Shown: positions 29,604 through 32,067 of the stretch, piece after piece
Numbering within the stretch: the first letter of the stretch is position 1
Layout: the number at the start of each line of letters is the position of its first letter
Source: Eledone cirrhosa
Taxonomy: Eukaryota
NCBI GenBank assembly: GCA_964016885.1
Contig: OZ024746.1
Coordinates: forward strand, 54,684,001-54,748,000
Reading direction: 5' to 3'
Length of the DNA stretch: 64,000 nucleotides
Notes under the pieces: generated by a model
What the model saw: only the letters and a program-made list of their open reading frames with translations
Databases searched by the model: none
Told to the model about the DNA's origin: nothing
Position numbers and translations under genes: made by a program

Positions 29604-29821
29604 ATGCGTGTGGCTGAGTGGTTAGAGAATTGTATTCGCAATCGTAAGGTTGTGAGTTCGATTCCTGGACCAGGCGATGCGTTATGTCCTTGAGCAAGAT
29701 ACTTTATTTCACGTTGCTCCTTCTACCTGGAATTGCGACCGATAGATAGTATTAGCAATTGGAAAGACCAACGGAAACATTGTTCCCTCGGTCCGATTTG
29801 ACAAAAAAGTCGATCGTTCCT
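29604..29821 (+). mobile_element. tRNA-headed SINE with alternative structured tail, inserted in TA
   Basis: A-box tggctgagtgg, B-box gagttcgattcc, gtccttgagcaag body; second copy at 31881-32067 (-). Confidence 0.8.
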
Positions 29822-30159
29822 TTTATATATATATATATATATATATATATATAGCACTTATTGTACAGCCAACCATGTTACTCTTCATTCTTTAACTATT
29901 ATTACTCCAAGTATAACCTGCATAGAAATTACCGGGAACTCGCTCCATAACTATGGAAACATCTTGTTGAGTCAAACAAAGCCGTATGTTAAAACTATCC
30001 ACGGCGCGGAGTACTCATAACCTCTAACTGGATTAGCTATAACGATAACTTGTTATCCTATATATATATATATATATTGGTTTCGGTTTAGAGTGTGATT
30101 CTTTTATATATCTCTCTCTCTCTCTCTCTCTCTATATATATATATATATACATATAAGA

Positions 30160-30580
30160 ATCCTACTCTAAACCAAAACGTACCGCTAAAACTAACCAGA
30201 AATGTAACTCTAATCCCAATCCTAAACCTAATCCTGAAGCTAACCCAGATCCTATAACCAAACAACGTTAAGCCTTAATGATATTTGTAACCGATAAACG
30301 TAAATTTAACCCGAACATTAGCTCTAACAGTAATACTAACCCTAACCCAAACAGCAACGCAAGTCCGACTTGCACATAACCCTACCTCACAAACTAAATC
30401 TAATCCATATACAGTAATCCACCTAAACCTAAAACTAACCCTAAACCTAAACTTAACCCCTAACCATAAACAATACACTAACCCTAAATTTTCCCTTATT
30501 CCTAATCATATCCCTAACGCTAACCCTAACCACAAACCCTAACCATAACACTAACTCTAACGCTAACCAAAAACATTACC
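30160..30580. repeat. Degenerate (CCCTAA)n telomere-like array
   Basis: many ctaacc/ctaaacc/ccctaa units with heavy divergence. Confidence 0.7.
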
Positions 30581-31026
30581 CCACCCAAATGTCCATGATC
30601 TCCAGTAGACAACTGATGAAGGGAAATTATCCCCCGTTCGTGCTTTCCTCTTATTTATAAATACACTTTATCCATCAACCTCACACTCCTTGAATATTCT
30701 CTCTCTCTCACTCTCTCTCTCTCTCGCTCTCTCTCTCTCTCTCTCTCTCTCTCTCTCTCTATATATATATATATATATATATATATATATATATATATAT
30801 ATATATATATATACATATATATATATATATATATATATATATATATATATATATATATATATACATATATATATATATATATAATTGGTTATGCACGAGT
30901 GCATTAATGTTTTCCAGGACACAGTGTTATGTACCGTGTAGTGGAATGTCAGCTTACAACAGAGTGGTGCTCAACGAAATGCAGAAAAAAGGTGTATATT
31001 CCAGTTTAGCTATATTCTGGGGCGTG

Positions 31027-31553
31027 TATAAAGAATTAAAAAGAACAGAAAGATGCAGTAAAAGAGATTTATTCAGTTCTTACGTACGTTTCAATAGACA
31101 TCAATTTGCCTAGATCTCGCTACATCTATAATATTATATATTTAGTAGAGCATTCGATATCCAATGCACAATCGATTCCATATCATCAGAGATTACATAA
31201 TCTCTGATGATATGGGATCGATTGTGCATTGGATATCGAATGCTCTACTAAATATATAATATTATAGATGGATTGGCAGTATCGGTAGAGGGTCGGACGT
31301 CATGCTTTCCAGCATAGTTACGTCCCTTTACGATCTGAGTTCAAATCCCGCCGAGGTTGACTTTGCCTTTCATCCTTACGGGGTCGATAAAATAAAGTAC
31401 CAGTAATGCACTGGGTAATTGCTGGCCTTGTGCCTAAAGTAGAAACAATTATAGATGTAGCGAGATCTAGGCAAATTGTTGTCTATTGAAACGTACGTAA
31501 GAACTGAATAAATCTCTTTTACTACATCTTTCTGTTCTTTTTAATTCTTTATA
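31027..31553. mobile_element. Head-to-head PLE-like palindrome with long-stem-II HHR; right arm interrupted by SINE-A
   Basis: centre ~31196; minus 31078-31192 tct-CTGATGA...GAAA-cgtacg-TA-aga. Confidence 0.8.
31271..31450 (+). mobile_element. SINE-A with 10-bp target-site duplication
   Basis: attatagatg at 31261-31270 and 31448-31457; the left arm shows the empty site. Confidence 0.92.
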
Positions 31554-31646
31554 TATATATATATATATATATATATATATATATATATATATATATATAT
31601 ATATATATATATATGTATATATATGTCTATATATATATATATATAT

Positions 31647-31865
31647 AGGAAAAGTGTCAGGACCCCGACGGAAGGGCTCAAAGCGTTTCTGGACTAGAAA
31701 TAGAATCCAGAAATAGTCTAGAATAGTCCAGAAATAGCCGTCGAAACGGCTTGAGCTCGGCGGTCGGGGTCCTGACTCTTTTCCTATACCCTTTCTAGTA
31801 CATAAAATATCGAGTACTCTGGTGCATTATGGTCCACCCGGTTCCTTACCACACTTCCTTCGTTA
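31647..31865. mobile_element. Family B head-to-head 3' ends
   Basis: ggaaaagtgtcaggaccccgac inverted at gtcggggtcctgactcttttcc. Confidence 0.75.
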
Positions 31866-31880
31866 AATATATATATATAT

Positions 31881-32067
31881 AGGAACGATCGACTTTCGTC
31901 AAATCGGACCGAGGGAACAATGTTTCCGTTGGTCTTTCCAATTGCTAATACTATCTATCGGTCGCAACTCCAGGTAGAAGGAGCAACGTGAAATAAAGTG
32001 TCGTGCTCAAGGACATAACGCATCGCCTGGTCCAGGAATCGAACTCACAACCTTACGATTGCGAATA
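31881..32067 (-). mobile_element. 5'-truncated second copy of the TA-inserting tRNA SINE
   Basis: reverse complement of 29633-29821 with a few substitutions; (TA)n on both sides. Confidence 0.8.

What the first reader, a model, noticed from the sequence alone, without database searches (positions are those of the whole stretch)
29604..32067. tRNA-headed SINE that appears to ride the TA-targeting machinery
Seen: two copies (29604-29821 +, 31881-32067 -) share the tRNA/CORE-like head of the ordinary SINE at 5429-5752 but switch after gttgctcc to a different ~100-nt structured tail. The tail has a gaccga/tcggtc-closed three-way junction, then a gatttgac-gaaa-gtcgatc hairpin. Both copies are flanked by TA runs, show no distinct TSD, and end in gttcct like family B termini. 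Established: SINEs normally borrow LINE 3' tails. Inference: a Pol III SINE mobilised by a Penelope-like element, which I do not recall being a well-described pairing.
Basis: partly seen in the sequence, partly recalled or inferred. Interest (0 to 1): 0.75.

Follow-up and report, generated by a model that had tools for sequence, protein, structure and literature searches.

The report
Tailless SINE likely riding Penelope elements
These two short repeats belong to a young family of about 4,000 tRNA-headed jumping elements that land mostly in TA repeats and lack the repeated tail such elements normally borrow; they are likely copied by Penelope-type enzymes, though no partner was found and a TA-seeking LINE remains a real rival.

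Summary
The two copies (96.8% identical, unrelated flanks) belong to a dispersed young tRNA/CORE SINE family of about 3,800-4,400 copies in an octopus-like genome; 30 of 37 position-ordered copies end at (TA)n. Corrections: target-site duplications (TSDs) of mostly 10-13 nt exist, the three-way junction is not supported, and the tail is a deletion derivative of an older, longer subfamily. No autonomous element sharing the tail was found. For a Penelope-like (PLE) carrier: no simple-repeat tail; 9 of 10 exact head-to-head junctions are doublets with two outward 3' ends, five doublets sit inside one TSD (the PLE arrangement; about 0.2% of heads against at most about 0.02% in a control SINE); two fusions with PLE ends. 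Against: no PLE homology or intact hammerhead, doublets about 100-fold rarer than at PLE ends, and a young CR1-group LINE in this same window also targets (TA)n. PLE carrier about 0.5. The scan noted similar tRNA-headed PLE hitchhikers before, here and in other genomes (unchecked notes). New variant of a known kind.

The parts
29606..29821 (+). SINE copy 1, short-tail family, A6-loop variant; lacks the first 6 nt of the 222-nt unit
29611..29621 (+). Pol III A-box-like motif
   Evidence: seen in the sequence; fits the promoter pattern quoted in PMC8969392
29654..29665 (+). Pol III B-box-like motif
   Evidence: seen in the sequence; pattern in PMC8969392; ARAGORN and Rfam find no whole tRNA
29684..29720 (+). 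CORE-like central segment shared with the ordinary SINE (the CORE label is recalled, not tested against a library)
29721..29793 (+). Middle body of unknown origin, shared with the older long subfamily; outer stem 29737-29742 with 29788-29793
29794..29820 (+). Terminal hairpin and sharp 3' end; in the long subfamily about 45 more nt lie inside this hairpin
29824..29853 (.). (TA)15 target at the 3' end of copy 1; a shorter TA run lies at 29583-29605
31881..32064 (-). SINE copy 2, GAAA-loop variant, 5'-truncated, TA runs at 31867-31881 and 32065-32076
31648..31866 (.). Neighbour: 'family B' inverted terminus with optional 3' extension (PLE-type layout; link to a PLE ORF likely, not proven)
32077..32246 (+). 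Neighbour: TA-flanked piece with a hammerhead core at 32149; second copy at 7685-7842
5429..5752 (-). Ordinary SINE with the same head and a different tail; not in TA
10068..12939 (+). Rival carrier: broken copy of a young CR1-group LINE family that ends in a 9-nt tandem repeat and inserts at (TA)n
42572..43553 (.). Candidate carrier: inverted doublet of the 3' end of a young PLE ('family C'), same family as the arm fused to a SINE stub in L081
20790..22300 (-). Candidate carrier: broken PLE fragment (RT thumb and C-terminal GIY-YIG), 15,405 genome candidates

Best explanation
This is a young, dispersed tRNA/CORE-headed SINE family without a simple-repeat tail that inserts mostly at (TA)n with 10-13-nt target duplications, and it is likely copied in trans by the reverse transcriptase and GIY-YIG endonuclease of Penelope-like elements. 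Shown: family, target bias, TSDs, sharp 3' end followed by 0-9 mostly T/A bases, rare head-to-head doublets inside one TSD, descent by internal deletion from a longer subfamily. Inferred: Pol III makes a 222-nt RNA ending just after a 3' hairpin; a PLE protein nicks both strands about 10-13 nt apart at TA-rich DNA and primes cDNA on that 3' end; when both nicks are primed on SINE RNAs a two-ended doublet results, and when one is primed on PLE RNA a SINE-PLE fusion results. Which PLE, and what it recognises, is not known.
For: TA within 16 nt of the 3' end in 30 of 37 position-ordered copies (30 of 38 with the hand-picked L100) and 1,553 forward-strand ends against 1,859 forward-strand ends counted by a slightly narrower pattern; background 2-21%; control SINE 7 of 85 and 12 of 91 ends, Dong/R4-type 7 of 56, CR1 (945-aa family) 0 of 19, PLE end 14 of 22. 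Every LINE end inspected carries a simple or tandem repeat tail; this SINE and the PLE ends do not. Exact head-to-head junctions: 15 hits = 10 loci among 4,401 head matches; 9 of the 10 keep both 3' ends; one 10-12-nt TSD encloses the whole doublet at L245, L250, L367, L388 and at L009, and the L009 target occurs once in the intact PLE end; arms differ in subfamily at 6 loci, so two RNAs. Control SINE: 111 junctions among 76,650 head matches, only 3 of 20 inspected flagged two-ended, 1 clearly. PLEs are reported to give head-to-head inverted ends inside 8-10-nt TSDs (PMC3846280), to extend both strands in vitro (PMC11167929) and to prefer (TA)n (PMC8557442). Two fusions of a 16-20-nt SINE 3' stub with a PLE arm, TA on both sides (L081, L321); both arms belong to ORF-bearing PLEs.
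Against: No PLE end aligns to the tail (5 ends tested, best p 0.18; nhmmer over 0.74 and 0.89 Mb of loci). No intact hammerhead and no optional 30-40-nt extension in the young family. Doublets are 0.2% of heads (1 of 67 copies not picked for oddity) against 15 of 46, 6 of 26 and 2 of 37 at PLE ends; the control SINE also has a few. PLE ends gave 0 informative TSDs in 278 clusters, so nick spacing could not be compared, and they look stricter for TA than the SINE. A young CR1-group LINE targets TA too (29 of 31 3' ends, 14 of 25 5' junctions); its 0 doublets in 31 copies cannot exclude a 0.2% rate. The two fusions could be later deletions; 0 of 30 full-length copies with non-TA 5' flanks showed a clear PLE fusion. 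The tested PLE (PAc) needs a motif in its own RNA and starts internally. The two junction patterns differ in strictness and both denominators are rough.
Confidence: 0.5

Rival explanations
1. The SINE is copied by the young TA-targeting CR1-group LINE (window 10068-12939) through relaxed recognition of its 3' hairpin.
For: 2,007 candidates at 98-99% identity; TA at 29 of 31 3' ends and 14 of 25 5' junctions; at least 2 of its 5' junctions abut tRNA/CORE-type heads (L395, L431).
Against: No tail likeness (p 0.80 and 0.90); the LINE always ends in a 9-nt tandem repeat that the SINE lacks; 0 two-ended doublets in 31 copies (low power).
Confidence: 0.22
2. The carrier is another LINE: a Dong/R4-type, Tx1 or RTE family, sampled or not, possibly the extinct donor of the middle body.
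For: Collinear weak likeness of the middle body to the 3' UTR of the intact 1,174-aa Dong/R4-type family (p 0.034-0.17) and to a Tx1 end (p 0.027); only about nine LINE families were inspected among 118,944 RT candidates; LINE parts do end up as SINE middle bodies (PMC5786205); RTE inserts at a T-stretch plus TA (PMC13295347).
Against: These p values do not survive 26 post-hoc comparisons; both Dong families end in (CATA)n and are not TA-flanked; three negative-pattern searches found no multi-copy non-SINE carrier of tail pieces (66, 16 and 5 hits), though each would miss a given partner more than half the time.
Confidence: 0.18
3. The family is the freed terminal repeat (pLTR) or retrozyme-like derivative of a PLE that itself carried a tRNA promoter and a hammerhead; the young form lost the ribozyme.
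For: The long subfamily has a hammerhead-like order of motifs: 9 of 48 copies fit a relaxed descriptor, 0 of 4,000 shuffles (descriptor written after seeing the sequence, copies chosen by a pattern holding part of the core). Unchecked notes report tRNA-headed pLTRs in other genomes.
Against: Strict core in 1 of 48; no Rfam hit; no subfamily with a canonical core (19 and 13 scattered hits); a long hairpin fits the subfamily changes better; no shared upstream or ORF in the 62 long-form loci read.
Confidence: 0.08
4. Local inverted duplication or chance.
For: The two copies are 2.1 kb apart on opposite strands.
Against: 3,817 3'-end matches against 69 controls; unrelated flanks; different loop variants.
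Confidence: 0.01

Closest known systems
Octopus tRNA-CORE SINEs (OR2 of Ohshima and Okada 1994, seen only as a citation in PMC4758252; tRNA-Core is a main octopus SINE class in PMC8967140)
   Same: tRNA-type A/B boxes, CORE-like centre, exchangeable tail, octopus-like host.
   Different: Tail of unknown origin, no simple-repeat end, TA targeting, two-ended doublets. I could not compare sequences with OR1/OR2, SINEBase, Repbase or Dfam, so the family may already carry a name.
Non-autonomous PLE passengers: animal non-LTR retrozymes (bioRxiv 10.64898/2026.07.22.740005, passages) and Chlamys-dependent MRC1 (PMC8557442, passages)
   Same: Short non-coding elements proposed to use PLE enzymes.
   Different: Those carry a hammerhead or PLE 3' homology and are often tandem; this has a Pol III-type head, no intact hammerhead, no PLE homology, and is mostly single.
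SMalpha of Schistosoma (SINE-like with an active type I hammerhead; PMC8490949, passages)
   Same: SINE-like element; the older long form here has a hammerhead-like relic.
   Different: No intact core here; TA targeting and doublets were not among the passages seen for SMalpha.
EN+ PLE insertions (Hydra, Neptune, Naiad, Poseidon; PMC8557442, PMC3846280, PMC11167929)
   Same: (TA)n preference, head-to-head inverted ends inside one short TSD, no poly(A) or microsatellite tail.
   Different: No ORF, no pLTR tandem as a rule, no optional extension, doublets about 100-fold rarer.

Membership tests
tRNA-derived SINE (SINE2) | A and B boxes at tRNA spacing near the 5' end | tested here: met
   29611-29621 and 29654-29665 fit the pattern in PMC8969392; no whole tRNA by ARAGORN or Rfam
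tRNA-derived SINE (SINE2) | Short, non-coding, dispersed, multi-copy | tested here: met
   222 nt; 3,817 end matches; 40 of 40 best hits on eight contigs
tRNA-derived SINE (SINE2) | TSDs and 5' truncation with a fixed 3' end | tested here: met
   20 informative TSDs; 27 of 38 full length, rest 5'-truncated or internally deleted; 14-20-nt stubs
tRNA-derived SINE (SINE2) | Transcription by Pol III | not testable with these tools
   needs RNA 5'/3' end mapping or inhibitor tests
LINE-tailed SINE | 3' tail homologous to a LINE 3' end | tested here: inconclusive
   no significant match to 7 LINE ends; LINE families sampled incompletely
LINE-tailed SINE | Poly(A) or simple-repeat 3' end | tested here: not met
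   0-9 variable, mostly T/A bases then target; no TA tail at non-TA sites
CORE-SINE | CORE domain homology to the published consensus | not tested
   no library held; label recalled; segment is shared with the ordinary SINE
PLE-dependent non-autonomous element | (TA)n / AT-rich targeting | tested here: met
   not exclusive to PLEs here
PLE-dependent non-autonomous element | Head-to-head inverted copies inside one TSD; partial tandems | tested here: met
   5 doublets with one TSD; tandems at L100 and L357; rare
PLE-dependent non-autonomous element | 3' homology to an autonomous PLE | tested here: not met
   5 PLE-type ends; PLE families sampled incompletely
PLE-dependent non-autonomous element | Optional 30-40-nt 3' extension | tested here: not met
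   no recurring extension in about 100 young 3' ends read; a short recurring extension in 3 of 13 long-form copies was not followed up
PLE-dependent non-autonomous element | Copying by a PLE protein | not testable with these tools
   needs an in vitro or cell assay
Retrozyme / hammerhead SINE | Intact hammerhead core | tested here: not met
   absent from the young form; strict core in 1 of 48 long-form copies; no Rfam hit

The most novel reading that the evidence does not exclude
A conventional tRNA/CORE SINE lineage has switched from LINEs to Penelope-like elements as carrier without taking any PLE sequence, needing only a 3' hairpin, and has grown more TA-specific as it shortened (possibly shedding a hammerhead). 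That would show PLE enzymes can copy foreign Pol III RNAs at scale.
Probability: 0.45. Interest if true: 0.72.

Novelty: new variant of a known kind. Interest (0 to 1): 0.5.

Why it matters
SINEs are defined as LINE passengers. A Pol III SINE carried by telomerase-related PLE enzymes would widen that definition and give a 222-nt natural substrate for asking what a PLE reverse transcriptase needs in an RNA, a question the first purified full-length PLE (PMC11167929) left open. The two-ended doublets inside one TSD are also genomic evidence that both target nicks can be primed on separate RNAs. If the CR1-group LINE is the carrier, the case is a more ordinary relaxed SINE-LINE pair, with a TA-targeting CR1 as the side result.

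Tried and rejected
Local duplication: rejected. Three-way junction and unusual stability: not supported. Known RNA families: nothing above noise. HDV-like, SECIS and snoRNA readings of the tail: inspected by eye against recalled layouts, no fit. Functional hammerhead in the long form: not supported. Partners by tail match: 945-aa CR1 family ends in (ATT)n; two Dong/R4-type families end in (CATA)n; RTE and Tx1 ends; PLE ends: none matched. Negative-pattern searches found only SINE variants, stubs and single sites; 44 of the 66 hits were read as loci, all 16, as strings only. A 65-nt tail search returned nothing because common words are skipped. One search was wasted: the query was a tandem piece of the first Dong family. 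The local doublet count 3 of 123 (Fisher p 0.043) is inflated, since L100 and L054 were picked for odd structure; I do not rely on it. Sequencing runs: no RNA holder listed; contigs of organisms A, B and C cover the element, and loose ends gave the lead to the long form but no partner. PLE TSD lengths could not be measured. Not run: how far the short extension seen in 3 of 13 long-form copies continues; this leaves open whether the long form leads into a parent PLE.

Full report
OBSERVATION. The two copies are present and 96.8% identical; their head is 73.9% like the ordinary SINE at 5636-5744 and the tails diverge after 29720. A- and B-box-like motifs lie at 29611-29621 and 29654-29665; ARAGORN and Rfam see no whole tRNA. 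The flanks are unrelated. The tail is not more stable than shuffles; the outer stem, one inner hairpin and the terminal hairpin are well predicted, the third arm of the proposed junction is not.

FAMILY. The window lies in a 3.0-Gb animal genome, octopus-like by repeat content (inference). The tail gave 1,428 candidates, the 40 scored all 99-100% and dispersed. A 3'-end pattern matched 3,817 times against 69 for the control; a 21-nt head pattern 4,401 times (may include sister families). The unit is 222 nt. I fetched 40 of the first 100 listed matches on contig C1; leaving out a chimera (L081) and a segmental duplicate (L083), 30 of 38 had TA within 16 nt of the 3' end, 24 at the 5' end, 27 were full length; L100 was hand-picked, so 30 of 37 without it. 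Genome-wide, 1,553 forward-strand ends have TA within 10 nt. Background is 2-21%. Where the site is not pure TA there are TSDs, mostly 10-12 nt. The 3' end is followed by 0-9 mostly T/A bases and then target, with no repeat tail. Contigs from organisms A, B and C also cover the element.

ORIGIN OF THE TAIL. A loose end led to an older subfamily (646 matches; about 20% diverged) with the same head and middle body and about 45 more nt inside the terminal hairpin. The young form is a deletion derivative, and its 3' end then changed in steps; the youngest end type is the most TA-bound in the fetched loci (56 of 71, against 6 of 14 and 2 of 9; biased sampling). The long form has hammerhead-like motifs in the right order (9 of 48 copies by a relaxed post-hoc descriptor, 0 of 4,000 shuffles) but a strict core in only 1 of 48, no Rfam hit and no canonical subfamily. 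A long hairpin kept through all subfamilies is the simpler reading.

SEARCH FOR THE PARTNER. None found. LINEs read: a 945-aa CR1 family ending in (ATT)n, two Dong/R4-type families ending in (CATA)n (clade names from recalled motifs), RTE and Tx1 ends. PLEs read: one with 15,405 candidates, and the ORF-bearing owners of 'family C' and 'family D' ends. Tail alignments gave p 0.027 at best among 26 comparisons. Negative-pattern searches and HMM scans of fetched DNA found only SINE forms. Late in the work the CR1-group LINE of this window (10068-12939) proved to be young and TA-targeted, so TA bias alone does not point to PLEs.

INSERTION ANATOMY. An exact head-to-head pattern found 10 loci; all were read. 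Nine keep both 3' ends pointing outward; at L245, L250, L367 and L388, and at L009 found earlier, one 10-12-nt TSD encloses the whole doublet; at six loci the arms are different subfamilies. L009 sits in a PLE end whose intact form holds the target once. That is about 0.2% of heads. A control SINE has 111 junctions among 76,650 head matches under a looser pattern, but 17 of 20 read are short fold-backs of the head or one-ended, and only 1 of the 3 flagged is a clear two-ended doublet: at most about 0.02%. PLE ends form such doublets in 15 of 46, 6 of 26 and 2 of 37 cases; Dong 0 of 62, CR1 0 of 22, the TA-targeting CR1 0 of 31. Among 16 very short stubs, one is fused head-to-head to a PLE arm (L321); L081 is a second fusion. 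Deletion after separate insertions is not excluded for either.

MECHANISM. Shown: retroposition-type anatomy with staggered nicks 10-13 nt apart at TA-rich sites, and events in which both nicks were primed on SINE 3' ends. Inferred: the enzyme is a PLE protein, since PLEs extend both strands in vitro and prefer AT-rich DNA (PMC11167929, parts 1-2 of 4), give inverted ends inside 8-10-nt TSDs (PMC3846280, passages) and favour (TA)n (PMC8557442, passages and section 6). I put this at 0.5, the TA-targeting CR1 at 0.22, another LINE at 0.18, a freed tRNA-headed pLTR at 0.08.

LITERATURE. Ten searches listed no paper on a tRNA-CORE SINE without hammerhead carried by PLEs; the library lacks most subscription journals. 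Passages seen: retrozyme preprint, PMC4209133, PMC8969392 (retrozymes may count as a PLE-dependent SINE type), PMC8490949, PMC4758252, PMC8967140, PMC5786205, PMC13295347; PMC13282606 part 1 of 3. No supplements were read; those of PMC13282606 and PMC8557442 may hold this family or its partner. Earlier notes of this scan describe similar tRNA-headed PLE hitchhikers in this and other genomes; they are unchecked and not counted as support.

VERDICT. Real young SINE family with PLE-like insertion anatomy and no identified carrier; new variant of a known kind; interest 0.5.

Noticed in passing
window 10068-12939 (+): Young CR1-group LINE family (2,007 candidates, 98-99% identical) that inserts at (TA)n: 29 of 31 3' ends, 14 of 25 5' junctions; ends in a 9-nt tandem repeat.
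   Followed up: partly
L151:1561-5082 and L152-L162: Very abundant Dong/R4-type LINE with many intact 1,174-aa ORFs (36,501 candidates) and (CATA)n tails, often inserted into itself or a second family 45% identical.
   Followed up: partly
L319, L320, L327, L330, L331 near 1500: Tail-to-tail SINE pairs around short TA runs, some palindromic including the spacer; 5 of 16 very short stubs are of this kind. Unexplained (fold-back at the TA target?).
   Followed up: no
L368-L387: The other abundant SINE (window 31269-31453 type) often carries a 10-40-nt inverted copy of its own head at the 5' junction, inside the TSD; 7 of its 20 informative TSDs are 16 nt.
   Followed up: partly
window 42572-43553, 27612-28595, 41306-41490, 43615-43890, 8082-8423, 31031-31549: Many inverted doublets of PLE-type ends in TA runs; hammerhead cores at 32149, 7780, 28404 and 27803.
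   Followed up: partly
L092, L104 near 700: Two SINE copies share the same 31-nt deletion between the A and B boxes, suggesting a sub-lineage or a recurrent slip.
   Followed up: no
L267 and L289, 5' flank near 1500: Perfect 35-45-bp fold-back palindromes directly upstream of full-length SINE heads.
   Followed up: no
L261, L264, L266 near 1500: A short recurring 3' extension in 3 of 13 long-form copies.
   Followed up: no
window 30150-30590: Degenerate 6-nt telomere-like repeat tract between the two SINE copies.
   Followed up: no
L031:1852-5016: PLE ORF with a long asparagine-rich insert upstream of RT, like the N-rich inserts reported in PMC3846280.
   Followed up: no
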